Shown here: piece by piece, positions 1-24,000 of the stretch
Position numbering within the stretch: the stretch's first letter is position 1
Layout: each line of letters starts with the position of its first letter
Assembly (NCBI RefSeq): GCF_000014265.1
Contig: NC_008312.1
Location: 5,370,001 to 5,402,000, forward strand
From: Trichodesmium erythraeum IMS101
GTDB lineage: Bacteria; Cyanobacteriota; Cyanobacteriia; Cyanobacteriales; Microcoleaceae
Reading direction: 5' to 3'
DNA: 32,000 nt
Position numbers and translations under genes: made by a program
Notes under the pieces: generated by a model
Databases searched by the model: none
Seen by the model: only the letters and a program-made list of their open reading frames with translations
Told to the model about the DNA's origin: nothing

Positions 1-2069
1 ACAGCGACATCTCTGCTGACGCTGAAAAAGCATCTGGAGGCCAAGTCGACATCACCGCAGCAGGTATATTCGGCATAAAATTCCGTCCTGAAAAAACAGA
101 AAGAAGTGATATCACAGTCACCTCAGAATTTGACAGAGATGGAGAAGTCAATATCAACACCCCCGATGTAGATCCTAGTGACGGACTAGTAGAATTTGAC
201 GATACCATCCCAGATATCTCCAACCTCCTCGACCAAAACCCTTGCCGAAAAGGACAAAACAGCAAATTCATCATTACAGGAAGAGGTGGCTTACCACCAA
301 CTCTCGAAGATCCCTTTACTCCCACCCACATCTGGCAAGGCTCAGAAACCTCAGTTACTCCTCCAAAAGCCATCACTCCATCAGAGCAAGAATTCATTGA
401 AGCACAAGGTTGGATCTCTAATTCTCAAGGTATTGAACTGATCACCAACCCCGAAACTGCTACTCCCACCTCCCCTTGGTTAATACCTCCCAACTGCAAA
501 CAATTAGACGCCTTTGAACCCCCACCCTATCTACTCGCTAGCAGTAAGGGAAATATTCCCACCTCAACTTCTGAACCTCTAAAAGTTACTATCAAACAAT
601 TCAACTTTGAGGGTAACACAAAATTTAGCAACCAAGAGCTACAACAACAACTCACACCTTATCTAAATAAACCCATTACCTTTGCTCAACTCATAGCAGC
701 ACGCACTGCTATTACAAAATATTATACCAAAAACAACTACATCACATCGGGAGCATTTATTCCTCCCCAAACTATGTCTGACAATGGCACAGTTACCCTC
801 CGAGTAGTAGAAGGAAAAGTTGGTGAAATCAACGTCAATATCCAAGGTAGATTAAATGAAAATTATATCAAAAGTCGGTTAGAAAAAGCTACCACAGCTC
901 CTCTGAATCAAGAAAAATTGGTGTCTGCCCTACAACTATTACAAATAGACCCTTTAGTCAAAACTATATCTGCGGAACTTTCATCCGGAGTCCGCCCAGA
1001 TACAAGTAGGTTAGACATAAGAATAGAAACAGCTAACCCCTGGCAAATAGAAACTATCAGTAATAATGGCAGGGCACCAAGTGTGGGAACATTCAGGCGA
1101 GGGGTAGAAGTAGGTCATAGGAATGTTACAGGTATTGGAGACAGTTTAAATGCTCTCTACACGAATACTGATGGCAGCGACATGGTAGAAGTATCTTATG
1201 CTATTCCTGTGAACTCCAGTAATGGTCGTATCGAACTATTTTATCGCCACAGAGATAATAAGGTAGTAGAATCACCTTTTGAAAGACTCGATATTGAGTC
1301 AAATTCAAATACTTACAAGTTATCATTTAGTCAACCAATAATGCAAACACCCTGGCAAACTTTAACTTTGGGTTTATCTGCAATAAAGCGAGATAGTCAA
1401 ACTTCCATATTAGGAGAGAATTATCCATTATCTGAGGGTGCAGATGAAAATGGGGAAACGAAATTATCAATTTTGCAGCTTTTCCAAGATTATGAACTAC
1501 GGGGAAAAAATCAAGTTTTGGCGTTTAATTCTCAGTTGAATGTAGGGTTGGGAATATTGGATGCCACAAAGAATAGTAGTGAACCGGATAGTCGATTTTT
1601 GTATTGGCGGGGTCAGGGACAATGGGTGCGTGAGTTAGCCAAAAATACTTTGTTGGTGGTTGGAGCAGATCTACAGTTATCTCCATTTGATTTGGTGCCT
1701 AAAGAGCAGTTTGGTTTAGGAGGTTATCGAAGCGTGAGAGCCTATCGTCAGGATACTCGTTTAACAGATAATGGAGCGTTGGGAACAGTGGAGTTGCGCT
1801 TGCCGCTGCCCTGGATATCTGGAAAAAATAGATTATTTCAGGTAGTGCCGTTTATTGATGGGGGGGTAGCATGGAATAGTGATGATGAAGAGGTAGAAGG
1901 AAGTAAGGCTTTGGCGGCGGCCGGGGTGGGGTTGCAGGTAAATTTATGGGAGAAGATAAATATGCGCTTAGATTATGGAATTCCTTTAGTGGATGTGGAC
2001 TCGCCAGATAAAACGGCTCAGGAGGAAGGGTTTTATTTTTCTTTTTCTACTACTCCTTTTTCTTTTTGA
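1..2069 (+). CDS. 5'-truncated (window edge) paralog of the fused TpsA-passenger/TpsB-transporter protein: end of the beta-helical passenger, Pro-rich linker, 2 POTRA, ShlB/FhaC-type beta-barrel
   Basis: The frame starting at nt 3 is open to the stop at 2067-2069. My translation reads SDISADAEKASGGQVDITAAGIFG...NPCRKGQNSKFIITGRGGLPP...EAQGWISNSQGIELI...KVTIKQFNFEGNTKFS. The ORF-track entry 774..2069 is only the part after the first ATG. It is collinear with about aa 703-1391 of the 5265..9440 protein at a constant 7371-nt offset. It ends in FSF, an aromatic OMP beta-signal. Confidence 0.8.
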   Translation, partial: SDISADAEKASGGQVDITAAGIFGIKFRPEKTERSDITVTSEFDRDGEVNINTPDVDPSDGLVEFDDTIPDISNLLDQNPCRKGQNSKFIITGRGGLPPTLEDPFTPTHIWQGSETSVTPPKAITPSEQEFIEAQGWISNSQGIELITNPETATPTSPWLIPPNCKQLDAFEPPPYLLASSKGNIPTSTSEPLKVTIKQFNFEGNTKFSNQELQQQLTPYLNKPITFAQLIAARTAITKYYTKNNYITSGAFIPPQTMSDNGTVTLRVVEGKVGEINVNIQGRLNENYIKSRLEKATTAPLNQEKLVSALQLLQIDPLVKTISAELSSGVRPDTSRLDIRIETANPWQIETISNNGRAPSVGTFRRGVEVGHRNVTGIGDSLNALYTNTDGSDMVEVSYAIPVNSSNGRIELFYRHRDNKVVESPFERLDIESNSNTYKLSFSQPIMQTPWQTLTLGLSAIKRDSQTSILGENYPLSEGADENGETKLSILQLFQDYELRGKNQVLAFNSQLNVGLGILDATKNSSEPDSRFLYWRGQGQWVRELAKNTLLVVGADLQLSPFDLVPKEQFGLGGYRSVRAYRQDTRLTDNGALGTVELRLPLPWISGKNRLFQVVPFIDGGVAWNSDDEEVEGSKALAAAGVGLQVNLWEKINMRLDYGIPLVDVDSPDKTAQEEGFYFSFSTTPFSF

Positions 2070-2096: not shown

Positions 2097-2194
2097 CTTA
2101 GGTAATTATGACACGCCAGTTGAAAGTAATTGAAAGTAGAAGGAAGTGAAACCCAATACACTCTTTATTGTTTAGACATTTATATATATTTATT

Positions 2195-4717
2195 ATGAAG
2201 ATCATAAAATTGCTCGCTATTACTCTATTAAGTTTCTGTATCACTGTGGGAATTAATATTTTACCTCCCACTTTAGCTGAATCTTCTGCCACTCATCTAG
2301 TTCAAGAAGGAACTCAATTATTACAACAAGGAAAGGCAGAAGCAGCATTAGAAATTTGGCAAAAAGCAGAGGAACTTTATCGCCAAAATCAAAATCAAAC
2401 TGGTATTATCGGTACCAAAATTAATCAAGCTCAAGCTTTAACCAGTTTGGGTTTTTATGGACGTTCGTGTAATACTGTCTTACAAGCATTTGGCAATGAT
2501 TTAGAATGCGCTCGCTTAACTGAAAATGACTTAGAAAATGTTCTGGAAAAGTTTCAAACATCAAATACTAGCCTAAATTTTCAGGGATTACAAATTTTAG
2601 GAAATGGACTGCTGGCGTTCGGTAAATTGGAGTTATCTGAAAAGGTATTAGAAGCAAGTTATAAGTGGGTAAATTCTAACAATACTAAAGCTCAATTGTT
2701 GATAAGTTTAGGTAACAATAGGCTTTCTCAAGCTCAAAATATTGCTGTCGATCGTAGAAGTGGAAAAGATGAACGAGCGCTTCGAACCCTAGTTGATCAA
2801 AGTTTATCTAATTATCAAGAAGCTGCCAGTATTTCTACTGACAAATCAGTTCAAATTCAAGGAACTATTAATAATCTTAGTTTGCTAGTCAAATTTACTA
2901 AAGAAATTGGTGATTTAGATACTTATGTACAATTTCAGATTGAAACTTTACCCGAAATTATTGATTTTTTAAATCAAATTAATCCTACTCCTAAATCAAT
3001 TAGAGCCAGAATTAAATTAGCAGAAATTTTTACAAATATTGAGGAAATTAAAGATCAATCAGCTTTTGTTGAATTTCAAACTAATATTACTAAGTTAACT
3101 CCACCTAGCGAATTATTAAATCAGGCAATTGAAGAAGCAAAAGATATTAATAATTTCCGTTTAGAAGCTTATGGACTTAGTACCAAGGCAAAATTGAATC
3201 TCAAAAAAGGAAACCTAGAAGAAGCACTTAAATTGACAAATAAAGCATTATTGACTGCTCAAAAAGTATCTGCTTATGATATTGTTTATCAACTCCAAGA
3301 ACAATTAGGAGATATTTTTATTAAGCAAGGAAATTATTCAGAGGCACTCTTAGCTGACAAATCTGCTTTTAATACTCTCCAAGTTTTACGACAGGATTTA
3401 GTAGCATTAAATAGAAATATTCAGTTTAACTTTCGTGATAGTATTGAACCTTTGTATAGAAAATTACTAGACTTATTACTTCAACCTGAACTCGGCTCAA
3501 ATCAACCCAATGTGGAAAATATTAAAGTTGCTGTTGAAGTAATTGAATCTCTACAATTGGCAGAATTGGATAATTTTTTCCAAGATGCTTGTGTGAATGC
3601 TCAGGATATTAATATTGATGAAATTGATGAGAATGTAGCTGTTATTTATCCAATCTTATTCAAGGATAGATTAAGTGTAATTCTTAAATTGCCTGGTACT
3701 GATAGTTTTCGTTATGCTACCGTGAGTGAGAATGACTTTCAAGCTAAATTTGAGAAAAACCTATTGGGACTCAGAGTTAATATTACGAGTCTAAAGCGAA
3801 AACCAAGACTAATAGGTGAAGTCAAATTCCAGTCAAATCAACTTTACAATTGGTTAATTAAACCTTTTGAGGGATATTTGGAAATAGATCTAAAAGATGA
3901 TGCGAGTCAAATAAAAACCCTAGTTTTTGTCTTGGAAGGAAATCTCAGAAATATTCCTATGTCCGTTTTATATGATAGTAAACGGGAAAGATATTTAGTG
4001 GAACGATACGCGATCGCTGTGGCTCCCAGTTTGGAATTGCTCCCTCCCAAACCCTTATTAAAACAGCAAATACGAGTATTAACTACTGGAACAGATAAAG
4101 AAGCACCAAGTTATAGACAGAGAGGCTATGATGATTTACCTAATGTTAAACAGGAACTAGAGAGTATCAATAAAACGGCGCCACAGTCTGAGGCATTAGT
4201 AGATGAAAAATTCACAGAAATTAATATATCTGACAAAATTAATTCTGAGTCCTTTAACATCGTCCATATTGCAACTCACGGACAATTTAGCTCTAATTCT
4301 GATCAAACCTTCATTTTAGCATGGGATAAACCTATTAACGTTAAAGATTTCGATCAACTGCTCCAGAGTGAGAATTTGCAGCGATCACAGCGAGCTATAG
4401 AATTATTAATTTTAAGTGCTTGCCAAACAGCATTTGGAGATCAACGAGCAGCATTGGGTTTAGCTGGAGTTGCAGTTCGGGCGGGCGCTCGTAGTGTTTT
4501 AGGGAGTTTATGGAGGGTAGATGATGCCTCTACAGCAGAATTAATGAAACAATTTTATCAACAATTATTTCAGTCTAATACTTTACAACTGAAAAAAGCA
4601 GAAGCACTACGTCAAGTTCAAATTAAATTTATCAAAGGAGAGATTGAAACAAATTCAGAGGAATACAAGAAACCTTATTATTGGTCACCATTTATTATGG
4701 TCGGGAATTGGTTATAG
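2195..4717 (+). CDS. Exported CHAT-domain (caspase-fold) protease with an N-terminal TPR-like helical region
   Basis: The ORF opens at TTG 2168, but ATG 2195 gives MKIIKLLAITLLSFCITVGINILPPTLA/ES, a classic Sec signal peptide. The C-terminal part has the CHAT catalytic dyad context: VHIATHGQF (His codon 4277-4279) and LLILSACQTAFG (Cys codon 4421-4423), followed by LGSLWRVDD. It lies 126 nt downstream of the preceding gene on the same strand. Confidence 0.85.
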   Translation: MKIIKLLAITLLSFCITVGINILPPTLAESSATHLVQEGTQLLQQGKAEAALEIWQKAEELYRQNQNQTGIIGTKINQAQALTSLGFYGRSCNTVLQAFGNDLECARLTENDLENVLEKFQTSNTSLNFQGLQILGNGLLAFGKLELSEKVLEASYKWVNSNNTKAQLLISLGNNRLSQAQNIAVDRRSGKDERALRTLVDQSLSNYQEAASISTDKSVQIQGTINNLSLLVKFTKEIGDLDTYVQFQIETLPEIIDFLNQINPTPKSIRARIKLAEIFTNIEEIKDQSAFVEFQTNITKLTPPSELLNQAIEEAKDINNFRLEAYGLSTKAKLNLKKGNLEEALKLTNKALLTAQKVSAYDIVYQLQEQLGDIFIKQGNYSEALLADKSAFNTLQVLRQDLVALNRNIQFNFRDSIEPLYRKLLDLLLQPELGSNQPNVENIKVAVEVIESLQLAELDNFFQDACVNAQDINIDEIDENVAVIYPILFKDRLSVILKLPGTDSFRYATVSENDFQAKFEKNLLGLRVNITSLKRKPRLIGEVKFQSNQLYNWLIKPFEGYLEIDLKDDASQIKTLVFVLEGNLRNIPMSVLYDSKRERYLVERYAIAVAPSLELLPPKPLLKQQIRVLTTGTDKEAPSYRQRGYDDLPNVKQELESINKTAPQSEALVDEKFTEINISDKINSESFNIVHIATHGQFSSNSDQTFILAWDKPINVKDFDQLLQSENLQRSQRAIELLILSACQTAFGDQRAALGLAGVAVRAGARSVLGSLWRVDDASTAELMKQFYQQLFQSNTLQLKKAEALRQVQIKFIKGEIETNSEEYKKPYYWSPFIMVGNWL

Positions 4718-5264: not shown

Positions 5265-8200
5265 ATGAATTTTTATTTTGTTGTAACTCGTCAATATTTA
5301 CTTAAATCTCACACAAATTTTACAATAACGCTACGCCGCAAATCATCTACAATAAATCGCTATTTAAGAACAGAATCTTTAAATTCAGAAGATTTATGGC
5401 GAAATCTTACTCTTAGTGTTTTTCTCCTCTTTGGATTTTTTTCCCCCTCTGCCCTCGCTTTTTTTATTCATTTTCTCCTCTTTGGATTTTTTTCCCCCTC
5501 CGCCCTCGCTCAACTCCAACCAGATAATACATTGGGAGAAGAAAATTCAGTCGTCACACCGAATATCAATATTAAAGGGATAGAAAGCGATCGCATAGAT
5601 GGCGGGGCCCAAAGAGGGGCCAACTTATTCCACAGTTTTCAAGAATTCAACATTCAACAGGGACGAGGGGTTTACTTTAGCAACCCTGATGGAGTTCAAA
5701 ATATCCTGACTCGGGTCACAGGAAACAATGGCTCTAACATATTAGGAACCTTGGGTGTAGATGGAAAAGCTGATTTATTTTTCATTAACCCCAATGGCAT
5801 AATCTTTGGACCAGAGGCTAAACTAGATGTCCAAGGTTCATTCTATGGAGCTACTGCCGATAGTATCTTATTTAAAAATGGATTTGAATTTGCTAGTTCA
5901 GACCCTCAAGCGCCCCCACTACTTACAGTTAATGTTCCCATTGGTTTGAGGTTGCCCGAAAAGCCAGGTAGTATTCTGGTTGAGGGTCAAGGTCATAACA
6001 TAAATATGTCAGAGTACCTAGAAACATATGGATATAGAAACAGAAAAGAGGACCGGAATCTAGGGTTGGAAGTTTCCCAAGGCCAAACCTTAGGGTTAGT
6101 TGGTGGTGATATATTCTTAAGGGGGGGAAACCTCACATCAGATGGAGGACGTGTTGAATTAGGAAGTGTTCAGAATGGTGTAGTAGAAATCACTACCGAC
6201 CGTACCCTTAGCTATGATAAAAATCTGGAATTTGGCCAAATCATACTATCAGAAGCGAGTTCTATAGATATAAGTGGAAATGGAAGAGTAGAATTTCAAA
6301 TTCAAGGAGAAGAGATCAACGTGCAAGATAATTCACTAATTTTAGGAAAGATATTGGGTGATGAGGACGGAGGAAATTCAATTATTAGAGCATCTAAGTC
6401 TATTAAAATAGGACCTACAAAACCTTTTGAGAAGATTCCTGTGAAAATAAAAATTGTTAATTTTACCTATACTTTTAATAAGACTATGAGTTCTATTTTT
6501 CTAAACACTTATGGTAAGGGAGATGTCGGAGAGTTGAGGGTGAAAACAGAAAGTTTAACGCTGCAAGATGGAGCCGTTATTTATACCGGTACTGTGGGTC
6601 AGGGAAATGCAGGGAATTTAACAGTCTCTGCTAGAGACATAGAAATAAATGGTGGGAATTATGCGACTGGATTTTTTCCAACGACATTAGCAGAAGGTAA
6701 CGGAGGGAATTTGACGGTGGAAGTTGCAGAAAGTTTAACGCTGCAAGATGGAGCCGTTATGTCTGCCGGTACTGGGTATCAGGGAAATGCAGGGAATTTA
6801 ACAGTCTCTGCTAGAGACATAGAAATGAGTGGTTTTGTTGTTGTTACAACAATCACTGAAACAACAGGTAACGGAGGGAATTTGACGGTGGAAGTTGCAG
6901 AAAGTTTAACGCTGCAAGATGGAGCCGTTATGTCTGCCGGTACTGTGGGTCAGGGAAATGCAGGGAATTTAATAGTCTCTGCTACAGACATAGAAATAAT
7001 AGGCAAATCTCCTGATGGTAAATCCTTCAGTCGCTTAACCGCAGAAGCAACAAATGAATCAACAGGAGCAGCAGGAACCATAACCATCAACACCGAAACC
7101 CTCAACCTCCGGAACGAAGCCGAAATTATAGTCACCTCTGCTACCCAACAAGCTGCAGGTGACTTAATAATAAACAGCAACAACATCCGCATCGAAAACC
7201 AAGCTAGTCTCAAAGCTGAAACCAAAGGAGGTCAAGGCAGCATTACCATCAATAATAATAAAGACCTCATCCTGCGTAACAACAGCAACATCACCACTAA
7301 TTCTGAAGGCACGGCTACTGGAGGTAATATTACCATTAATACGGAAAACCTAGTTGCCCGAGACAACAGCGACATCACTGCTAACGCTGTCGAAGGATTT
7401 GGAGGCCGAGTTAACATCACCGCAGCCGGCATATTCGGCACAGAATTCCGTCCCGAACAAACCGAAAAAAGTGACATCACCGCCACCTCAAAATTAGGAG
7501 CTTCATTCAGTGGAGAAGTCAATATCAACACCCCTGATGTAGATCCTAGTGACGGGCTAGTAGAATTTGAGGATACCATCCCAGATATCTCCAACCTCCT
7601 CGACCAAAACCCTTGCCGACAAGGACAAAAAAGCAAATTCATCATTACAGGAAGAGGCGGCTTACCACCAACTCTCGAAGAACCCTTGGCTCCCACCTAC
7701 CTCTGGCAAGACTCAGAAACCTCAGTTACTCCTCCACCAGCTATCACTCCATCAGAGCAAGAGTTCATTGAAGCACAAGGTTGGATCTCTAATTCTCAAG
7801 GTATTGAACTGATCACTGACCCCGAAACTGCTACTCCCACCTCCCCTTGGTTAATACCTCCCAACTGCGAACAATTAGACACCTTTGAACCCCCACCCTA
7901 TCTACTCGCAAGCAGTAAGGGAAATATTCCCACCTCAACTTCTGAACCTCTAAAAGTTACTATCAAACAATTCAACTTTGAGGGTAACACAAAATTTAGC
8001 AACCAAGAGCTACAACAACAACTCACACCTTATCTAAATAAACCCATTACCTTTGCTCAACTAATAGCAGCACGCACTGCCATTACAAAATTTTATACTA
8101 AAAACAACTACATCACATCGGGAGCATTTATTCCTCCCCAAACTATGGCTGAAAATGGCACAGTCACCCTCCGAGTAGTGGAAGGAAAAGTTGGTGAAAT

Positions 8201-9440
8201 CAATGTCAATATCCAAGGTAGATTAAATGAAAATTATATCAAAAGTCGGTTAGAAAAAGCCACCACGGCTCCTCTGAATCAAGAAAAATTGTTGTCTGCC
8301 CTACAAATATTACAAATAGACCCTTTAGTCAAAACTCTATCTGCGGAACTTTCATCCGGAGTCCGCCCAGATACAAGTAGGTTAGACATAAGAATAGAAA
8401 CAGCTAACCCCTGGCAAATAGAAACTATCAGTAATAATGGCAGGGCACCAAGTGTGGGAACATTCAGGCGAGGGGTAGAGGTAGGCCATAGAAATGTTAC
8501 AGGTATTGGAGACAGTTTAAGTGCTCTCTATACTAATACTGATGGCAGCGATATGGTAGAAGTATCTTATGCTATTCCTGTGAACTCCAGTAATGGTCGT
8601 ATCGAACTATTTTATCGCCACAGAGATAATAAGGTGGTAGAATCACCTTTTGAAAGACTTGATATTGAGTCAAATTCAAATACTTACAAGTTATCATTTA
8701 GTCAACCAATAATGCAAACACCCTGGCAAACTTTAAGTTTGGGTTTATCTGCAATAAAGCGAGATAGTCAAACTTCTATATTAGGAGAGAATTATCCATT
8801 ATCTGAGGGTGCTGATGAAAATGGGGAAACGAAATTATCAATTTTGCAGCTTTTCCAAGATTATGAACTACGGGGAAAAAATCAAGTTTTGGCGTTTAAT
8901 TCTCAGTTGAATGTAGGGTTGGGAATATTGGATGCTACAAAGAATAGTAATGAACCGGATGGTCGATTTTTTTATTGGCGGGGTCAAGGACAATGGGTGC
9001 GTGAGTTAGGCAAAAATACTTTGTTGGTGATGGGAGCAGATCTACAGTTATCTCCATCTGATTTGGTGCCTAAGGAAAGGTTTGGTTTAGGGGGTTATCG
9101 AAGTGTGAGAGCTTATCGTCAGGATACTCGTTTGACAGATAATGGAGCGTTGGGAACAGTGGAGTTGCGGTTGCCCGTGCCCTGGATATCTGGAAAAAAT
9201 AGATTATTTCAGGTAGTGCCGTTTATTGATGGGGGGGTAGCATGGAATAGTGATGGTAAAGAGGAGGAAGGAAGTAAGGCTTTGGCGGCGGCCGGGGTGG
9301 GGTTGCAGGTAAATTTATGGGAGAAGATAAATATGCGCTTAGATTATGGAATTCCTTTAGTGGATGTGGACTCCCTAGATAAAACGGCTCAGGAGGAAGG
9401 GTTTTATTTTTCTTTTTCTACTACTCCTTTTTCTTTTTGA
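5265..9440 (+). CDS. Single-polypeptide fusion of a TpsA-like passenger (TPS/haemagglutination-activity domain plus repetitive beta-helix) with a TpsB-like transporter (2 POTRA plus ShlB/FhaC/HecB-type barrel)
   Basis: 1391-aa uninterrupted ORF. Hydrophobic signal region ...FGFFSPSALA/QLQPDNTLGEENSVV. TPS motifs GANLFHSFQEFNI, FSNPDGVQNILTRVTG and FINPNGIIFG (NPNG at 5787). Gly/Asn/Thr-rich beta-helix repeats. The conserved cyanobacterial TpsA C-terminus is present (NPCRQGQKSKFIITGRGGLPP...EAQGWISNSQGIELI). A Pro-rich linker follows, then POTRA-like KVTIKQFNFEGNTKFSNQEL...LRVVEGKVGEINV, then a barrel ending in FYFSFSTTPFSF. Confidence 0.85.
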   Translation: MNFYFVVTRQYLLKSHTNFTITLRRKSSTINRYLRTESLNSEDLWRNLTLSVFLLFGFFSPSALAFFIHFLLFGFFSPSALAQLQPDNTLGEENSVVTPNINIKGIESDRIDGGAQRGANLFHSFQEFNIQQGRGVYFSNPDGVQNILTRVTGNNGSNILGTLGVDGKADLFFINPNGIIFGPEAKLDVQGSFYGATADSILFKNGFEFASSDPQAPPLLTVNVPIGLRLPEKPGSILVEGQGHNINMSEYLETYGYRNRKEDRNLGLEVSQGQTLGLVGGDIFLRGGNLTSDGGRVELGSVQNGVVEITTDRTLSYDKNLEFGQIILSEASSIDISGNGRVEFQIQGEEINVQDNSLILGKILGDEDGGNSIIRASKSIKIGPTKPFEKIPVKIKIVNFTYTFNKTMSSIFLNTYGKGDVGELRVKTESLTLQDGAVIYTGTVGQGNAGNLTVSARDIEINGGNYATGFFPTTLAEGNGGNLTVEVAESLTLQDGAVMSAGTGYQGNAGNLTVSARDIEMSGFVVVTTITETTGNGGNLTVEVAESLTLQDGAVMSAGTVGQGNAGNLIVSATDIEIIGKSPDGKSFSRLTAEATNESTGAAGTITINTETLNLRNEAEIIVTSATQQAAGDLIINSNNIRIENQASLKAETKGGQGSITINNNKDLILRNNSNITTNSEGTATGGNITINTENLVARDNSDITANAVEGFGGRVNITAAGIFGTEFRPEQTEKSDITATSKLGASFSGEVNINTPDVDPSDGLVEFEDTIPDISNLLDQNPCRQGQKSKFIITGRGGLPPTLEEPLAPTYLWQDSETSVTPPPAITPSEQEFIEAQGWISNSQGIELITDPETATPTSPWLIPPNCEQLDTFEPPPYLLASSKGNIPTSTSEPLKVTIKQFNFEGNTKFSNQELQQQLTPYLNKPITFAQLIAARTAITKFYTKNNYITSGAFIPPQTMAENGTVTLRVVEGKVGEINVNIQGRLNENYIKSRLEKATTAPLNQEKLLSALQILQIDPLVKTLSAELSSGVRPDTSRLDIRIETANPWQIETISNNGRAPSVGTFRRGVEVGHRNVTGIGDSLSALYTNTDGSDMVEVSYAIPVNSSNGRIELFYRHRDNKVVESPFERLDIESNSNTYKLSFSQPIMQTPWQTLSLGLSAIKRDSQTSILGENYPLSEGADENGETKLSILQLFQDYELRGKNQVLAFNSQLNVGLGILDATKNSNEPDGRFFYWRGQGQWVRELGKNTLLVMGADLQLSPSDLVPKERFGLGGYRSVRAYRQDTRLTDNGALGTVELRLPVPWISGKNRLFQVVPFIDGGVAWNSDGKEEEGSKALAAAGVGLQVNLWEKINMRLDYGIPLVDVDSLDKTAQEEGFYFSFSTTPFSF
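5421..5510 (+). repeat. In-frame tandem duplication (39-nt unit, 51-nt period) inside the signal-peptide coding region
   Basis: tttctcctctttggatttttttccccctc(t/c)gccctcgct occurs at 5421-5459 and 5472-5510 with one synonymous difference. It encodes FLLFGFFSPSALA twice. Confidence 0.9.
5511..6250 (+). other. TPS (two-partner-secretion / haemagglutination activity) domain of the fusion protein (approximate bounds)
   Basis: It starts right after the predicted ALA/Q cleavage site and contains the NPxG-type motifs listed above. Boundaries are estimated by eye. Confidence 0.6.
6531..7010 (+). repeat. Three near-identical in-frame repeats (periods 180 and 171 nt) in the passenger beta-helix
   Basis: gaaagtttaacgctgcaagatggagccgttat starts at 6549, 6729 and 6900. 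The encoded unit is GNGGNLTVEVAESLTLQDGAVMSAGTxxQGNAGNLTVSARDIE. Confidence 0.85.
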
Positions 9441-9563: not shown

Positions 9564-9580
9564 GCGAGCTAGAAGCTCGC
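9564..9580. terminator. GC-rich hairpin between convergent genes (possible bidirectional terminator, no clear U-tract)
   Basis: gcgagct-aga-agctcgc forms a 7-bp perfect stem. It lies 12 nt beyond the clpB stop and about 125 nt beyond the fusion-gene stop. Confidence 0.25.
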
Positions 9581-9591
9581 AATTTATATAA

Positions 9592-12309
9592 TCACCTTTT
9601 TACCAATTTTCCCTCCTCTTTTTTCTTAAAAACTAAACCACTATCTACAAAATCAATGATCACAACATCCCCACAAACAAACCTATTCTCCAAAATTTGA
9701 TTTGCCAGAGGATTTTCTAATTCTCGCTGAATTGCCCGCTTTAAAGGTCTGGCTCCATAAACTGGGTCATATCCTACTTCAGTAATGTGATCTAAAGTCG
9801 CATCAGTCAACTGCAAACTAATCTTTTGTTCTCCTAATAACCGTTCAATTCTCTTGACTTGAATTTCCACAATTTGACGTAATTCACTCTTCCTTAGAGT
9901 ATGGAATAAAATAATCTCATCTACCCTATTTAAAAATTCAGGGCGGAAATGTTTTCGCAGTGCTCCCATCACCCGCTTATACATCTCCTCATACTTAGAA
10001 TCATCTCCCGCCACATCTAAAATATACTCACTACCAATATTACTAGTCATCACAATTACAGTATTACTAAAATCAATAACCCGACCCTGAGAATCAGTAA
10101 TTCGACCATCATCCAAAACCTGCAACAAAATATTAAACACATCTGGGTGCGCCTTCTCCACCTCATCAAACAATACCAAAGAATAAGGATGTCGCCTGAC
10201 TGCCTCCGATAATTGACCCCCTTGGTCATAACCCACATATCCAGGGGGAGCACCCACCAAGCGAGCAACAGCATGTTTCTCCATATATTCCGACATATCA
10301 ACTCGTACCAAAGCATCATCCCGGTCAAAGAGAAACCCTGCCAATGCCCGCGCCAACTCAGTTTTACCAACCCCAGTCGGACCCAAAAACATAAACGAAC
10401 CAATGGGTCTTCCTGGGTCTTTCATTCCTGCTCTCGCCCTTCTAATAGCTGCTGCTACAGCTGCTACAGCTTCTGACTGCCCAATAACCCTTTGATGAAG
10501 ATGTTTTTCCAGTTGTAGTAATTTCTGCCGTTCCGACTCCAATAAACGATTTACCGGAATACCAGTCCACTTAGCAACAATTGTAGCAATATCCCCATCA
10601 GTCACCTGTTCTCGGAGGAGAAAAGAACCTTGAGCTTGCACTTTTAATAACTCTGCCTCTTGGGCTTCGCGATCGCGATGAACTGTTTCTAATTGCCCAT
10701 ATTTTAACTGAGCTGCCGTATTCAGATCATAAGCTCGTTCTGCTTGTTCTATTTGTACTTTAATTTTATCTTCTTCTGCCTTCAAAGAATTAATAGAATT
10801 TAACAACTCTTTTTCCCCAGACCATTGAGAAGAAAATTTCTCCTGCTTTTGCTTTAAACTATTAATTTCATTAGTAATGCGCTCTAAAGCAGGAGATACC
10901 TTTGTAGACAGAATAGCTTCAGAATTTTTTTCCTTATTAGTACCTGACAACTCTCCCTCAATAGAAAGTTTCTCCATTTCCAACTGCATTATCCGTCTGT
11001 CAATAGCTTCTAACTCAACTGGTTTAGAAGTAATTTCCATTTTTAATTGAGCAGCAGCTTCATCTACCAAGTCGATCGCCTTATCTGGCAAAAAGCGGTC
11101 AGAAATATATCGGTTAGACAAAGTAGCAGCAGCAACCAAAGCCGCATCAGTAATTTTCACACCGTGGTGAGTTTCGTAGCGGTCTTTCAACCCCCGCAAA
11201 ATAGAAATAGTATCCTCAACACTAGGCTGACCAACCTCTACTTTTTGAAACCGACGTTCCAGGGCAGCATCTTTTTCTATATGTTTGCGATATTCATCAA
11301 TAGTTGTTGCACCGATACAACGCAGTTCACCACGAGCCAGCATTGGTTTCAACAAATTTCCGGCATCTACACCAGAACTGTTACCCCCACCAGAACCTGC
11401 TCCAACAACTGTATGTAACTCATCAATAAACAGAACTATTTGACCATCAGAATGGGTAACTTCTCGTAAAACCGATCTAAGACGTTCTTCAAATTCTCCT
11501 CTAAACTTAGCCCCCGCAATGAGACTACCCATATCAAGACTAATAAGTTGACGTTCTTTAAGAGACTCTGGCACATCACCATTAACAATACGTTGAGCTA
11601 AACCCTCCGCGATCGCTGTTTTTCCCACCCCCGGTTCTCCAATAAGTACAGGATTATTTTTTGTCCGACGAGATAGACAACTAACCACCCGCCGAACTTC
11701 CTCATCTCTGCCAATAACCGGGTCAAGTTTACCTACTTTCGCTAACTCTGTCAGGTCACGCCCATATTTAGCTAAAGCATCATAAGTAGCTTCTGGGTTT
11801 TGGTCTTCGACTTTGCTACTACCTCGAAATGCTTTAATAGTTGCCTCTAGTTCTTTAAATTCAATTTGTAGAGTAGTTTGGGGGGGAGCAAAACCAGGGC
11901 GAGTTGGTAGTTGGGGAGTTCCACCACCAATAAGTTTATTACCCAGACGTTTATCTTCGTGAAAAGCGAGTAGAAAGTGTTCCACAGCAATAAATTTATC
12001 TTCCCACTTTTCTTTAGCTTGATCAGCCAGGTCTAAAAAAGTTTCCAGACCTTGACCTAAATATAGATGTTCTATACTGCCAACTTTAGGTTGACGTCTC
12101 ACAAAAGCATCTACTTGTTGTAGGAGCTTTTCTGGTTCTATACCAGAACGGCTTAAGATTTTATTCGCTGTGCCTTGTTGTTCTAGGAGGGCAATAATTA
12201 GGTGTTCTACTTCCAGTTGTTGGTTTTGGTAGCGTTTGGCAACGTCTTGGGATTTTACTATAGCATCCCAGGCTTGTTCTGTAAATTTGCTTGGGTCAGT
12301 TGGCTGCAT
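9592..12309 (-). CDS. clpB: ATP-dependent chaperone/disaggregase ClpB
   Basis: 905 aa. It has a Clp N-domain, two AAA+ modules with Walker A motifs GEPGVGKT and GPTGVGKT, and a long coiled-coil middle domain between them. Typical ClpB signatures RRFQKV and [10 protein letters not shown] are present. Confidence 0.95.
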
Positions 12310-20800: not shown

Positions 20801-21011
20801 AAATACTCGGCTGTTGTGAAATAGGGGAGCGATCGCTATAGTAAAAATAGAATATTTTATTGCTCAAAACATCATAAGTTAAGATCAAGTTTGAGCTTTA
20901 AAGTTGATGTTCTCCGGGGAAATTAGTGATAATTTATTGCTGATTCTGTATAATTATGGTATGATTGTTATAAAAAATCCTGTTATAATTTTTGACCCGG
21001 CTTTTGTTTTT

Positions 21012-24000
21012 ATGTTTACCAGAATCTTCAGCATCACTTATTTGGCCCAAACTTGCCTGGCAGCTATTGTTATTATCAATGGCCTAGAAGCTTTGGTTGT
21101 GCAGCCTGTATGGGCACAGACTTATGTCTTTCCACAAGAACCATCAACAACCGAAGCAACTGAGGAGCTGATAATTAATGGGACTCTCAATGAAAATAGT
21201 GAGCTGTTGGAAGATGGGAGTTACTTTCAGTGGCACACTTTTACGGGCAAGGCGGGTGAAGCTATTACTATTGAGTTGAGTAGTTCTGAGTTTGATGCTT
21301 ACTTAATGTTAGTAGACCCAAGATCCAATAAAATTGCTGAGAATAATGATGGAGGGGAAAATAATAATGCCAAAATTACAATAACTCTACCTACAACAGG
21401 AACTTATACAGTTATTGTCAATACCTATGAAAAAGGTCAACAAGGAAGTTACAAACTGAGTTGGCGACAGGCTTCAGCTAAAGACCAGTCCCTAGCTTCT
21501 GCCACAGAACTTAATGACAAAGCTATTGAACTATATAAACAAGGTAAATATGATGAAGCAGTTCCTTTATTAGAGCAGTCTTTGAAAATTAGGCAGCAGG
21601 CGCTGGGGGCTGAACATCCTGATGTTGCCGCCAGCCTCAACAATTTGGCTTTTCTTTACAATGCTCAAGGAAGGTATACAGAAGCGGAACCTTTGTATAT
21701 ACAAGCATTAGAGATGAGAAAGAAGCTCCTGGGTGCTGAACATCCTGATGTTGCCTCCAGCCTCAACAATTTGGCTTTTCTTTACAAAGCTCAAGGAAGG
21801 TATACAGAAGCGGAACCTTTGTATATACAAGCATTAGAGATGAGAAAGAAGCTCCTTGGTGCTGAACATCCTGATGTTGCCACCAGCCTCAACAATTTGG
21901 CTTCTCTTTACGAATCTCAAGGAAGGTATACAGAAGCGGAACCATTGTATATACAAGCATTAGAGATATTTAAGAAGCTCCTGGGTGCTGAACATCCTGA
22001 TGTTGCCACCAGCCTCAACAATTTGGCTTTTCTTTACAATGCTCAAGGAAGGTATACAGAAGCGGAACCTTTGTATATACAAGCATTAGATATGACAAAG
22101 AAGCTCCTGGGTGCTGAACATCCATCAGTTGCCACCAGCCTCAACAATTTGGCTTTACTTTACGAGGATCAAGGAAGGTATACAGAAGCGGAACCTTTGT
22201 ATATACAAGCATTAGAGATGAGAAAGAAGCTCCTGGGTGCTGAACATCCTGATGTTGCCACCAGCCTCAACAATTTGGCAGGACTTTACAATGCTCAAGG
22301 AAGGTATACAGAAGCGGAACCTTTGTATATACAAGCATTAGAGATGAGAAAGAAGCTCCTTGGTGCTGAACATCCTGATGTTGCCACCAGCCTCAACAAT
22401 TTGGCTTCTCTTTACGAATCTCAAGGAAGGTATACAGAAGCGGAACCATTGTATATACAAGCATTAGAGATATTTAAGAAGCTCCTGGGTGCTGAACATC
22501 CTGATGTTGCCTCCAGCCTCAACAATTTGGCAGGACTTTACAAGGATCAAGGAAGGTATACAGAAGCGGAACCTTTGTATATACAAGCATTAGAGATGAG
22601 AAAGAAGCTCCTGGGTGCTGAACATCCTGATGTTGCCTCCAGCCTCAACAATTTGGCAGCACTTTACAAGGATCAAGGAAGGTATACAGAAGCGGAACCT
22701 TTGTATATACAAGCATTAGAGATGAGAAAGAAGCTCCTGGGTGCTGAACATCCTGATGTTGCCTCCAGCCTCAACAATTTGGCAGGACTTTACAATGCTC
22801 AAGGAAGGTATACAGAAGCGGAACCTTTGTATATACAAGCATTAGAGATGAGAAAGAAGCTCCTGGGTGCTGAACATCCATTAGTTGCCTCCAGCCTCAA
22901 CAATTTGGCAGGACTTTACAATGCTCAAGGAAGGTATACAGAAGCGGAACCTTTGTATATACAAGCATTAGAGATATTTAAGAAGCTCCTGGGTGCTGAA
23001 CATCCATTAGTTGCCACCAGCCTCAACAATTTGGCAGGACTTTACAATGCTCAAGGAAGGTATACAGAAGCGGAACCATTGTATATACAAGCATTAGAGA
23101 TGAGAAAGAAGCTCCTGGGTGCTGAACATCCTTATGTTGCCACCAGCCTCAACAATTTGGCTTTACTTTACTATGCTCAAGGAAGGTATACAGAAGCGGA
23201 ACCATTGTATATACAAGCATTAGAGATGAGAAAGAAGCTCCTGGGTGCTGAACATCCTGATGTTGCCTCCAGCCTCAACAATTTGGCAACACTTTACAAT
23301 GTTCAAGGTGACATTGCTTCAGCAGTGCAATACCTTAAACGCGGCTTAGAAGTGCAAGAAAAAAACCTAACTTACAACTTAGCCGCCGGGGCTGAACCTC
23401 AAAAAAACAAATATCTCCAAACCATCTCAGGAGCAAAGGCTAGAGCCATCTCTCTCCATCTGCAAACAGCACCAAATGACCCAGCCGCGACCACTCTAGC
23501 ATTAACCACCATCCTACGCCGCAAAGGTCGCCTCCTCGAATTCTTCACCACCAGCAGACAAATACTCCGACAACAACTCGACACTCAAGGACTACAATGG
23601 CTAGACGAACTTAATAATATTTATAGTGAACTTTCCACTCTGCTCTATAACGGACCAAAAGATCTTCCTCTAGAAACCTACAAGGAAAATTTTGCCCTCT
23701 TAGAACAACAGGCAAAAGAACTAGAAGACAAAATTAGTCGCCGCAGTAGCCAGTTTCGGGCAGCCACCCAACCTGTAACCTTAGAAGCTATTCAGGAGTT
23801 GATACCCGCCAACGCTGCCTTAGTAGAATTTGTCCAGTATTCTCCTTTTGACCCCAAGACAGGCAAATTCGGTAAACCACGCTATGGGGTTTACGTTCTA
23901 AGTAGAGAGGGAGAACCCCAAGGCATGGACCTGGGAACAGTTGAAGAATTTAAAAACATCATAAAAGTGTTTAGAACTTCTCTACGAGACAAAAGCCAAA

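What the first reader, a model, noticed from the sequence alone, without database searches (positions are those of the whole stretch)
5265..9440. TpsA passenger and TpsB transporter encoded as one polypeptide (single-chain two-partner secretion, type Vd-like topology)
Seen in sequence: one 1391-aa ORF carries, in order, a signal peptide, a TPS domain (NLFHSF, NPDG, NPNGIIFG), a repetitive beta-helix, and the motif that normally ends cyanobacterial TpsA-like proteins (NPCxxGxxSxFxxTGRGGLPP...EAQGW). A Pro-rich linker follows (TPTSPWLIPPNCEQLDTFEPPPYLLASS). Then come two ShlB-type POTRA domains and a barrel ending in Phe. There is no stop, no second signal peptide and no plausible internal start at the junction. 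The partial paralog at 1-2069 keeps the same open frame through the junction despite many substitutions, which argues against a sequencing frameshift or pseudogene. Established knowledge: in type Vb secretion TpsA and TpsB are separate proteins. Only type Vd (PlpD-like) fuses a passenger to POTRA plus a TpsB-like barrel, and that passenger is a patatin lipase rather than a TPS/beta-helix. Inference: this would be a distinct architecture in which the TPS domain must engage its POTRA domains in cis.
Basis: partly seen in the sequence, partly recalled or inferred. Interest (0 to 1): 0.8.

Follow-up and report, generated by a model that had tools for sequence, protein, structure and literature searches.

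The report
Fused TpsA–TpsB secretion protein, Trichodesmium
A cyanobacterial gene really does encode a secreted adhesin-like passenger and its own outer-membrane exporter as one protein; this natural fusion was already noted in this organism in 2010 and 2012 but has never been studied experimentally.

Summary
Window 5265..9440 (+) is one 1391-aa ORF of Trichodesmium erythraeum IMS101 (ABG52579.1). In order it carries a leader, a TPS domain, a repeat region, a conserved C-terminal TpsA module (CTD), a short linker, two POTRA domains and a 16-strand FhaC/CdiB-like barrel.

It is not an artefact. About 50 protein clusters from Trichodesmium, Okeania, Dapis, Laspinema, Baaleninema and Geitlerinema share the architecture. 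Their transporter modules form essentially one clade, and the POTRA and barrel parts are under purifying selection.

It derives from a conserved split cyanobacterial operon, tpsA–tpsB–TPR-CHAT. In Nostoc, tpsA and tpsB overlap by 11 nt.

The novelty claim fails. Arnold et al. 2010 and Leo et al. 2012 cite T. erythraeum Tery_3487 as exactly this gene fusion. No functional work was found.

New here: these 1260–1970-aa proteins have essentially only two cysteines, both in the CTD, and split TpsA homologs end 2–17 residues after the second one. I infer that the CTD is a periplasmic stopper, which would make the fusion topologically neutral and leave the passenger tethered. A co-encoded exported TPR-CHAT protease may release it.

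Verdict: real, interesting, but already known. Interest 0.35.

The parts
5265..9440 (+). Whole fused tpsA-tpsB ORF, 1391 aa plus stop. It is T. erythraeum IMS101 ABG52579.1 / WP_011612921.1 / Q10YU5.
   Evidence: exact sequence match
5265..5510 (+). N-terminal leader, aa 1-82. A long n-region is followed by a hydrophobic core and an AxA site. LLFGFFSPSALA is tandemly duplicated (nt 5424-5459 and 5475-5510). The predicted mature N-terminus is QLQPDNTLG.
   Evidence: orthologs have a single AxA|Q(L/I)(Q/V)PD site
5508..6233 (+). TPS secretion domain, aa 82-323, with NPDG and NPNGIIFG motifs.
   Evidence: Pfam PF05860 E 1e-52; TIGR01901; PDB sequence hits to the TpsA proteins HxuA 4i84 and EtpA 8vba
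6234..7541 (+). Gly/Asn-rich repeat region, aa 324-759, presumed beta-helix. It includes 171-nt (57-aa) tandem units at 6515-6999.
   Evidence: no Pfam or NCBIfam model matches. The beta-helix fold is inferred, not modelled.
7542..7868 (+). Conserved C-terminal module of cyanobacterial TpsA-like proteins (CTD), aa 760-868. It has block A (NPC..F.ITGRGGLPP), a variable Pro-rich spacer and block B (IEAQGW..G.IELI beta-hairpin ..PPNC). It holds the only two Cys of the protein: C784 (nt 7614-7616) and C868 (nt 7866-7868).
   Evidence: hairpin pLDDT 61-79; no curated family
7869..7955 (+). Linker, aa 869-897 (EQLDTFEPPPYLLASSKGNIPTSTSEPLK). It corresponds to the mature Pro-rich N-terminus of stand-alone cyanobacterial TpsB, including the PPPxxLL motif. 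It has no signal-peptide remnant.
   Evidence: pLDDT below 50
7956..8411 (+). Two POTRA domains, about aa 898-972 and 973-1049.
   Evidence: Pfam POTRA_2; AF2 beta-alpha-alpha-beta-beta units with pLDDT 82-91; PDB hits CdiB 6wim and TpsB4 POTRA 2mhj
8412..9437 (+). 16-strand Omp85/TpsB barrel, aa 1050-1391. The L6 loop motif VRAY is at nt 9105-9116, FIDGG is at 9222-9236, and the protein ends in Phe.
   Evidence: Pfam ShlB; AF2; Foldseek top hits CdiB 6wim E 5e-27, then FhaC 4ql0 and 4qky; motifs
1..2069 (+). 3' part of a second fused paralog (end of repeat region, CTD, linker, POTRAs, barrel). It is 92% nt identical to the finding over 2067 nt, and the same frame is open through the junction.
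   Evidence: The full-length ortholog in a Trichodesmium MAG (P0003, 1387 aa) has the TPS domain.
2168..4717 (+). TPR-CHAT (caspase-like) protein with an N-terminal signal peptide. The likely start is the ATG at 2195 (MKIIKLLAITLLSFCITVG...). It is the conserved downstream partner of the fused or split tpsA/tpsB genes.
   Evidence: The same gene order is seen in Okeania L083, Laspinema L001, Baaleninema L002 and the split Nostoc operon L028.

Best explanation
This is a genuine, conserved gene fusion of the two partners of a cyanobacterial two-partner (type Vb) secretion system.

Shown:
- One polypeptide carries leader, TPS domain, repeat passenger, conserved TpsA C-terminal module (CTD), about 29 aa of linker, two POTRAs and a 16-strand FhaC/CdiB-like barrel.
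- The fused form is a derived, essentially single-origin lineage within Oscillatoriales.
- It arose from a conserved split operon, tpsA-tpsB-TPR-CHAT, in which tpsA and tpsB can overlap by a few bases.
- The join sits exactly where split TpsA proteins end, 2-17 aa after the second conserved Cys. It deletes the TpsB signal peptide.

Inferred mechanism:
1. The whole chain is exported by Sec using the single N-terminal leader.
2. The C-terminal barrel is inserted into the outer membrane by BAM, with its POTRAs in the periplasm.
3. The still-unfolded, Cys-free passenger is captured through its TPS domain. The POTRAs of the same molecule are the most likely captors because of their high local concentration.
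4. The passenger is threaded out through the barrel and folds at the surface.
5. Translocation stops at the CTD. Its two invariant cysteines are the only ones in the protein. They probably close an approximately 85-residue disulfide loop in the periplasm that cannot pass the pore.

On this model the TpsA C-terminus and the TpsB N-terminus are both periplasmic. Fusing them is then topologically neutral, and it converts a non-covalent surface anchor into a covalent one at 1:1 stoichiometry. The result is an autotransporter-like, cell-tethered filament. The exported TPR-CHAT caspase-like protease encoded next door is the best candidate for processing or releasing it.
For: Architecture.

Not an artefact:
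- The exact protein is in GenBank/RefSeq.
- About 40 of the top 120 homologs carry PF05860 + PF08479 + PF03865, from six or more genera.
- 51 proteins have TPS + CTD + transporter by phmmer.
- Between the two window paralogs, dN/dS is 0.22 for the POTRAs and 0.18 for the barrel, and the junction has no indel.

Single origin: all 52 fused transporter modules fall in one NJ clade of 54 tips.

Derived from a split operon: in Nostoc L028 the gene order is CHASE2-CHAT, DUF928, tpsA (ends ...IQCHGS*), tpsB, TPR-CHAT. tpsB has its own signal peptide and its ATG overlaps the tpsA stop by 11 nt. About 10 further loci have a tpsA CTD immediately upstream of tpsB.

Fusion point and CTD.

Cys pair: 48 of 51 fused proteins have exactly two Cys after the leader, 74-114 aa apart. 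57 of 67 split TpsAs have exactly two, both in the CTD.

Short tether: the distance from the second Cys to POTRA1 is only 19-25 aa in several genera. That is hard to reconcile with an extracellular CTD.

Exported CHAT neighbour.

Precedents, from my own knowledge of the field: type V passengers are Cys-poor because disulfide-bonded folds block outer-membrane translocation; the FhaB prodomain and the C-terminal half of CdiA are retained in the periplasm.
Against: - There are no experimental data for any member. Only two papers mention the fusion, both in passing.
- The junction is modelled with pLDDT below 50 apart from one hairpin.
- The full-length model of a natural 865-aa mini-fusion gave an unreliable TPS domain, so it says nothing about a cis TPS-POTRA contact.
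- The disulfide and the periplasmic location of the CTD are inferred from conservation only.
- No FhaC-like H1 plug helix is predicted.
- Between the two window paralogs the junction shows dN/dS of about 0.8, though on only 18 changes.
- This particular copy has an odd, duplicated leader and is not itself followed by a CHAT gene.
- The CHAT gene accompanies split systems too, so it is not specific to the fusion.
Confidence: 0.55

Rival explanations
1. Polyprotein precursor. The fused chain uses one signal peptide only for export. It is then cut in the linker or CTD by a periplasmic protease, for example the neighbouring TPR-CHAT. This yields an ordinary TpsA and an ordinary TpsB that work as a classical type Vb pair.
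For: - The linker is disordered and weakly constrained between paralogs.
- An exported caspase-like protease is conserved next to the gene.
- The TpsB part retains the mature N-terminal PPPxxLL region of stand-alone TpsBs.
Against: - The CHAT gene is equally present in split operons, where no such cut is needed.
- No conserved cleavage motif is evident in the linker, which varies in length and sequence.
- A 1:1 precursor gives up the catalytic use of TpsB without obvious gain.
- Nothing here tests it directly.
Confidence: 0.2
2. Secretion in trans. The TPS domain of one molecule is handled by the POTRAs and barrel of a neighbouring molecule, giving chains or dimers rather than self-transport.
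For: - Nothing in the sequence forces cis use.
- The type Vd protein PlpD forms homodimers in the outer membrane (title and abstract of PMC11116518, listed).
Against: - Local concentration strongly favours the covalently attached POTRAs.
- With a periplasmic CTD tethered 19-47 aa from POTRA1, the chain emerges next to its own pore.
- No data exist either way.
Confidence: 0.12
3. Sequencing or assembly artefact, or a decaying pseudogene formed by accidental read-through of tpsA into tpsB.
For: - Split tpsA/tpsB genes can overlap by 11 nt, so a single indel would fuse them.
- The leader of this copy is aberrant.
Against: - The same junction is open in the second window paralog, in a third IMS101 paralog (ABG52378) and in about 50 clusters from six or more genera at 33-90% identity.
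- The transporter signal peptide has been cleanly removed.
- The POTRAs and barrel are under purifying selection.
- The fused proteins form one old clade.
Confidence: 0.01
4. Internal translation initiation produces a separate TpsB from within the long ORF.
For: One in-frame TTG lies at aa 808.
Against: - No hydrophobic signal sequence follows any candidate start: maximum KD(15) is 0.29 across aa 780-900.
- A barrel protein made there could not reach the periplasm.
Confidence: 0.02

Closest known systems
T. erythraeum 'TPSS gene fusion' Tery_3487 (Arnold, Zeth & Linke 2010, PMC2878562; Leo, Grin & Linke 2012, PMC3297439)
   Same: [quoted passage not shown] The gene in the window is either Tery_3487 itself or one of its paralogs. 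IMS101 has at least three.
   Different: Nothing architectural. Those papers give one or two sentences and a figure footnote. They give no distribution, origin, CTD/Cys analysis, neighbourhood or function. I could not map ABG52579.1 to a Tery_ locus tag with the tools at hand.
Classical type Vb two-partner secretion (FhaB/FhaC, CdiA/CdiB, ShlA/ShlB)
   Same: - TPS domain with NPxG/NPNGI motifs.
- Repeat passenger.
- Transporter with two POTRAs, a 16-strand barrel and an L6 VR(G/A)Y motif.
- Best structural matches are CdiB and FhaC.
- Periplasmic retention of the TpsA C-terminus has precedent in FhaB and CdiA (own knowledge).
   Different: - The two partners are one chain, so stoichiometry is fixed at 1:1 and the passenger cannot be released without proteolysis.
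- There is no second signal peptide.
- No H1 plug helix is predicted; there is a Pro-rich linker instead.
- The CTD with its Cys pair is specific to the cyanobacterial family.
Type Vd (PlpD / Omp85-patatin)
   Same: The order is an N-terminal passenger, then POTRA, then an Omp85-type barrel, all in one polypeptide. Leo et al. 2012 discuss this as 'fused two-partner secretion'.
   Different: - The passenger is a TPS/repeat protein, not a patatin lipase.
- There are two ShlB-type POTRAs rather than (mostly) one.
- The barrel is closest to CdiB/FhaC.
- It arose independently from a cyanobacterial tpsA-tpsB operon.
Split cyanobacterial tpsA-tpsB-TPR-CHAT clusters (e.g. Nostoc L028; All5110-All5116 of Nostoc PCC 7120, cited by Arnold et al. 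2010)
   Same: - Homologous TPS domain, repeats, CTD with the two Cys, TpsB module and downstream exported TPR-CHAT.
- Frequent DUF928, CHASE2-CHAT and DUF1822 neighbours.
   Different: There are two genes, TpsB has its own signal peptide and a longer Pro-rich N-terminus, and there are sometimes several tpsA copies per tpsB.

Membership tests
TpsA (type Vb passenger) | N-terminal TPS secretion domain with conserved NPNL/NPNGI-type motifs | tested here: met
   PF05860 E 1e-52, aa 82-323; TIGR01901 E 1e-26; NPDG aa 140 and NPNGIIFG aa 175; PDB sequence hits to HxuA and EtpA
TpsA (type Vb passenger) | Sec signal peptide preceding the TPS domain | tested here: inconclusive
   A hydrophobic core (KD15 2.13) and an AxA|Q site are present and conserved in orthologs. 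In this copy the leader is 82 aa with a duplicated h/c-region. No dedicated signal-peptide predictor was available.
TpsA (type Vb passenger) | Right-handed beta-helical repeat passenger | not tested
   Gly/Asn-rich 57-aa repeats are present, but there is no family hit and the region was not modelled.
TpsB (type Vb transporter, Omp85 superfamily) | Two periplasmic POTRA domains followed by a 16-strand barrel | tested here: met
   PF08479 and PF03865. The AF2 model shows two beta-alpha-alpha-beta-beta units plus 16 strands. Foldseek gives CdiB 6wim E 5e-27 and FhaC 4qky E 1e-22.
TpsB (type Vb transporter, Omp85 superfamily) | Conserved L6 loop (V/I)RG(Y/F) motif and (F/G)xDxG motif | tested here: met
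   VRAY at aa 1281-1284 (family consensus VRGY) and FIDGG at aa 1320-1324
TpsB (type Vb transporter, Omp85 superfamily) | N-terminal H1 helix plugging the barrel (FhaC/CdiB) | tested here: not met
   No helix is predicted between the CTD and POTRA1; the segment is disordered and Pro-rich. Stand-alone cyanobacterial TpsBs also show only a Pro-rich N-terminus.
Type Vb system as defined | Passenger and transporter are separate polypeptides | tested here: not met
   Single uninterrupted ORF, conserved in about 50 clusters
Type Vd (PlpD-like) | Passenger fused N-terminally to POTRA plus an Omp85-type barrel | tested here: met
Type Vd (PlpD-like) | Patatin-like lipase passenger | tested here: not met
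   There is no patatin hit; the passenger is TPS plus repeats.
Type Vd (PlpD-like) | Barrel and POTRA belong to the Omp-patatin sequence cluster | tested here: not met
   The transporter module nests among cyanobacterial stand-alone TpsBs. Its best structural matches are CdiB and FhaC.

The most novel reading that the evidence does not exclude
The fused proteins are a self-contained type V subclass with the following behaviour. A Cys-free TPS passenger is exported through its own barrel. It is held permanently by a disulfide-locked periplasmic CTD that is covalently joined to POTRA1. It is shed only when the co-encoded exported TPR-CHAT caspase-like protease cuts it.

This would amount to a regulated surface-filament system of gliding or colony-forming Oscillatoriales. 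It would also be a natural construct that fixes the C-terminus of a TpsA in the periplasm, and so could settle how TpsA chains thread through TpsB.
Probability: 0.25. Interest if true: 0.6.

Novelty: already known. Interest (0 to 1): 0.35.

Why it matters
Type V secretion reviews define subtype Vb by the separation of passenger and transporter (for example PMC5422565). A 2014 census found no extra domains on TpsB-type barrels (PMC4104836). A natural, conserved TpsA-TpsB fusion is therefore a neglected bridge between Vb and the autotransporter-like subtypes.

It offers a ready-made test system. The passenger's C-terminus is fixed to the periplasmic side of its own transporter. This bears on three open questions:
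- the direction of threading (N-terminus-first or hairpin);
- cis or trans use of the POTRAs;
- how secretion is arrested and how the passenger is released.

For cyanobacterial biology it concerns large surface proteins of Trichodesmium and its relatives. Earlier authors speculated that such proteins act in filament adhesion, gliding or sheath formation (PMC1951784).

As a discovery claim it adds little, because the fusion was published in 2010 and 2012.

Tried and rejected
1. Full-length structure of a fused protein. The window protein exceeds the 1200-aa limit, so I modelled a natural 865-aa mini-fusion (P0021). The transporter was confident, but the TPS domain and junction had pLDDT below 50. 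This gave no information on TPS-POTRA contacts. Model coordinates cannot be inspected, so I could not check contacts of the CTD hairpin either.

2. Pfam and NCBIfam scans of the CTD and the repeat region at E up to 5 found nothing.

3. Looking up the IMS101 locus around the gene by exact protein failed for P0121, P0001 and P0131. The upstream part of paralog 1 and the Tery_ locus tags could therefore not be read.

Its 80 loci are a sample, not a census.

5. Heinz & Lithgow 2014, Guérin et al. 2017 and Zhang et al. 2012 were checked for the fusion. None describes it.

6. Promoter and terminator scans were uninformative, at background level.

7. dN/dS for the 'helix end' segment is invalid, because the ungapped comparison is out of register there.

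8. I did not search for independent TPS-TpsB fusions outside cyanobacteria.

Full report
**1. What is there**

Window 5265..9440 (+) is a single 1391-codon ORF. Its product is identical to GenBank ABG52579.1 / RefSeq WP_011612921.1 / UniProt Q10YU5. That entry is annotated 'filamentous haemagglutinin family outer membrane protein' of Trichodesmium erythraeum IMS101, so the window comes from that genome (taxonomy).

Domain hits:
- Pfam TPS PF05860, aa 82-323, E 1e-52.
- Pfam ShlB-type POTRA PF08479, aa 899-974, E 3e-21.
- Pfam ShlB/FhaC barrel PF03865, aa 1037-1348, E 4e-24.
- NCBIfam adhes_NPXG, aa 122-199.
- By sequence against the PDB, the TPS part matches the TpsA proteins HxuA and EtpA. 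The POTRA part matches CdiB and TpsB4.

An AlphaFold2 model of aa 760-1391, built on 28 aligned sequences, has mean pLDDT 72 and pTM 0.69. It shows two beta-alpha-alpha-beta-beta POTRA units and sixteen barrel strands at pLDDT of about 80-94. Foldseek ranks CdiB (6wim, E 5e-27), FhaC (4ql0, 4qky) and CdiB (6wil) above all BamA and TamA entries.

The Omp85/TpsB hallmark motifs are present. VRAY in loop L6 is at aa 1281-1284 (family consensus VRGY). FIDGG is at aa 1320-1324. The protein ends in Phe.

**2. The junction**

Between the repeat region and POTRA1 lie two elements.
- A conserved module that I call the CTD, aa 760-868.
- A 29-residue linker, aa 869-897.

The junction has no stop and no hydrophobic stretch. 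The maximum Kyte-Doolittle(15) score is 0.29, against 2.13 in the leader. The only start-like codon is a TTG at aa 808, and no export signal follows it.

The second copy at window 3..2069 is 92% identical at the nucleotide level. Codons 781-897 carry 18 substitutions and no indel. dN/dS is 0.22 over the POTRAs and 0.18 over the barrel, which shows purifying selection. It is about 0.8 over the junction, on few changes.

The mature N-terminus QLQPDNTLG is preceded by 82 residues. In these, the h/c-region LLFGFFSPSALA occurs twice in tandem. Orthologs have one ordinary signal peptide ending AxA|Q.

**3. It is a conserved family, not an accident**

A search of 5.8 billion proteins returned about 40 clusters among the top 120 that carry PF05860 + PF08479 + PF03865 together. 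They come from Trichodesmium, Okeania, Dapis, Laspinema, Baaleninema, Geitlerinema and unnamed Oscillatoriales. Identity to the query runs from 88% down to 33% (taxonomy).

With the exhaustive representative search added, phmmer classification found 51 proteins with TPS + CTD + transporter.

The junction aligns across all of them, with conserved blocks.

IMS101 itself has at least three copies: two in this window and ABG52378.1.

A neighbour-joining tree of 172 complete transporter modules puts all 52 fused ones in one clade of 54 tips. Only two stand-alone TpsBs are nested among them. This indicates essentially one ancient fusion event. It is a distance tree without support values, so it should be read as indicative.

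**4. Where it came from**

The rest were ordinary 560-770-aa TpsB genes, mostly from Nostocales. In about ten of these, a tpsA ending in the CTD lies immediately upstream.

In Nostoc sp. P10160 (L028) the gene order is as follows:
- CHASE2-CHAT;
- DUF928;
- a small ORF;
- tpsA (TPS ... CTD ... IQCHGS*);
- tpsB, with its own signal peptide, a Pro-rich region and a PPPSELF motif; its ATG overlaps the tpsA stop by 11 nt;
- TPR-CHAT.

The fused genes sit in the same neighbourhood:
- Laspinema and Baaleninema: fused gene, then TPR-CHAT, then DUF928, CHASE2-CHAT and DUF1822 on the other strand.
- Okeania: fused gene, then CHAT.
- This window: paralog 1, then TPR-CHAT at 2168..4717, then paralog 2.

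The evidence on the fusion point is consistent.
- Of 78 TPS-only homologs, 67 carry the CTD. In 52 that match a two-Cys pattern, the protein ends 2-17 residues after the second Cys, most often 3-4.
- In the fused protein, the residues after that Cys (EQLDTFEPPPYLLASS...) correspond to the mature Pro-rich N-terminus and PPPxxLL motif of stand-alone TpsBs.

The fusion therefore joined a complete TpsA to a TpsB that had lost its signal peptide.

**5. A feature that bears on mechanism**

The 1391-aa protein contains only two cysteines, C784 and C868, and both are in the CTD.
- 48 of 51 fused homologs (1260-1970 aa) have exactly two Cys after the leader.
- In 50 of 51, both lie in the CTD, 74-114 residues apart.
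- 57 of 67 split TpsA homologs also have exactly two, both in the CTD.

The CTD has no Pfam or NCBIfam model. Its block B (IEAQGW..G.IELI) is predicted as a beta-hairpin at pLDDT 61-79 in two independent models. The rest of the junction is below 50.

The distance from the second Cys to POTRA1 is about 28 aa here, and only 19-25 aa in Baaleninema, Laspinema and others.

**6. How it most likely works**

The steps below are inferred, not shown.

1. The chain is exported by Sec through its single leader.
2. BAM inserts the C-terminal barrel.
3. The POTRAs bind the TPS domain, most probably that of the same chain.
4. The Cys-free passenger is threaded out and folds at the surface.
5. Export stops at the CTD.

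It is established in the field that type V passengers avoid cysteines, because disulfide-bonded folds block outer-membrane translocation. It is also established that FhaB and CdiA keep C-terminal parts in the periplasm. Both points come from my own knowledge.

An invariant Cys pair confined to the CTD, plus a tether to POTRA1 that is too short to cross the barrel and run along both POTRAs, argues that the CTD is a periplasmic, disulfide-closed stopper or anchor.

If that is right, the C-terminus of TpsA and the N-terminus of TpsB lie in the same compartment. This explains why the fusion was tolerated. Its effect is to make the passenger covalently cell-bound at 1:1 stoichiometry, which is autotransporter-like.

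The neighbouring TPR-CHAT protein has a signal peptide (MKIIKLLAITLLSFCITVG...) and the CHAT domain. It is the obvious candidate for processing or release. Because it also accompanies split systems, its role is not specific to the fusion.

Rivals:
- A polyprotein cut into two classical partners (0.2).
- Trans-secretion between molecules (0.12).
- Internal initiation (0.02).
- Artefact or pseudogene (0.01).

**7. Comparison with what is known**

It works like a type Vb system but fails the defining criterion of separate partners. It has the chain topology of type Vd, but it lacks the patatin passenger and is not related to the Omp-patatin cluster. No FhaC-type H1 plug helix is predicted, and stand-alone cyanobacterial TpsBs also show only Pro-rich N-termini.

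**8. Novelty**

The architecture is not new.
[quoted passage not shown] They compare it with Omp-patatin.

These are the only two papers in the library that mention Tery_3487. Later surveys and reviews overlook the fusion:
- Guérin et al. 2017 define Vb by separate partners.

No functional study was found. Mussmann et al. 2007 speculate that the related cyanobacterial and Beggiatoa exoproteins serve gliding, sheath or filament formation.

**9. Verdict**

- Observation: confirmed.
- Interpretation: supported.
- Novelty claim: not upheld, because the fusion is already known, although it remains neglected and uncharacterised.

This analysis adds the following:
- the lineage distribution and near-monophyly of the fusion;
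- its origin from an overlapping tpsA-tpsB pair within a conserved CHAT-containing operon;
- the exact fusion point;
- the two-cysteine CTD, with the topological argument that follows from it.

Interest is 0.35.

Noticed in passing
window 5424-5510: There is a tandem duplication inside the signal-peptide region of the fused gene: LLFGFFSPSALA occurs twice, 51 nt apart. This gives an 82-aa leader with two candidate AxA cleavage sites. Orthologs and the IMS101 paralog ABG52378 have a single ordinary signal peptide.
   Followed up: partly
window 7542-7868, and C-termini of split homologs (e.g. L028 about 8050-8369): A conserved module of about 110 aa ends cyanobacterial TpsA-like proteins (DPC..F.ITGRGGLPP ... 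EAQGW hairpin ... C). It has no Pfam or NCBIfam model. It holds the only two cysteines of these very large proteins.
   Followed up: yes
window 2168-4717: A TPR-CHAT caspase-like protein with an N-terminal signal peptide lies here; the likely true start is the ATG at 2195. It is conserved directly downstream of fused or split tpsA/tpsB genes in Trichodesmium, Okeania, Laspinema, Baaleninema and Nostoc.
   Followed up: partly
window 20904-24998: A second, larger CHAT protein of 1364 aa lies here. It has a PPC domain, fourteen near-identical 42-aa TPR_12 units (126-nt tandem repeats at 21414-23414, 85-95% nt identity) and a C-terminal CHAT domain.
   Followed up: no
window 25593-30188 (-): This is a 1531-aa protein made of about 12 SdrD_B/CarboxypepD_reg-like repeats, presumably another large surface protein.
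   Followed up: no
L001 14671-22232; L002 14452-21331; L028 890-4061: A recurrent gene set accompanies the tpsA/tpsB genes in several cyanobacterial genera: DUF928, CHASE2-CHAT and DUF1822. These genes are absent from the 32-kb window.
   Followed up: partly
L028 8355-8372: In Nostoc sp. P10160 the tpsB start codon overlaps the tpsA stop by 11 nt (…CAGTGTCATGGTAGCTAA…). A single frameshift there would be enough to create a fusion.
   Followed up: yes
P0021 (metagenomic, 865 aa): This is a natural 'mini' fused protein. The whole repeat region is deleted, but the leader, TPS domain, CTD, linker, POTRAs and barrel are intact. It would be a convenient construct for experiments.
   Followed up: partly
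L007, L025: Two cyanobacterial-type TpsB loci come from a MAG labelled 'Actinomycetota bacterium'. This is probably a binning or taxonomic-label error.
   Followed up: no
window 9592-12309 (-): A ClpB chaperone (TIGR03346, 1274 bits) lies convergent to the fused gene. A terminator-like hairpin sits between them at 9564-9580.
   Followed up: no
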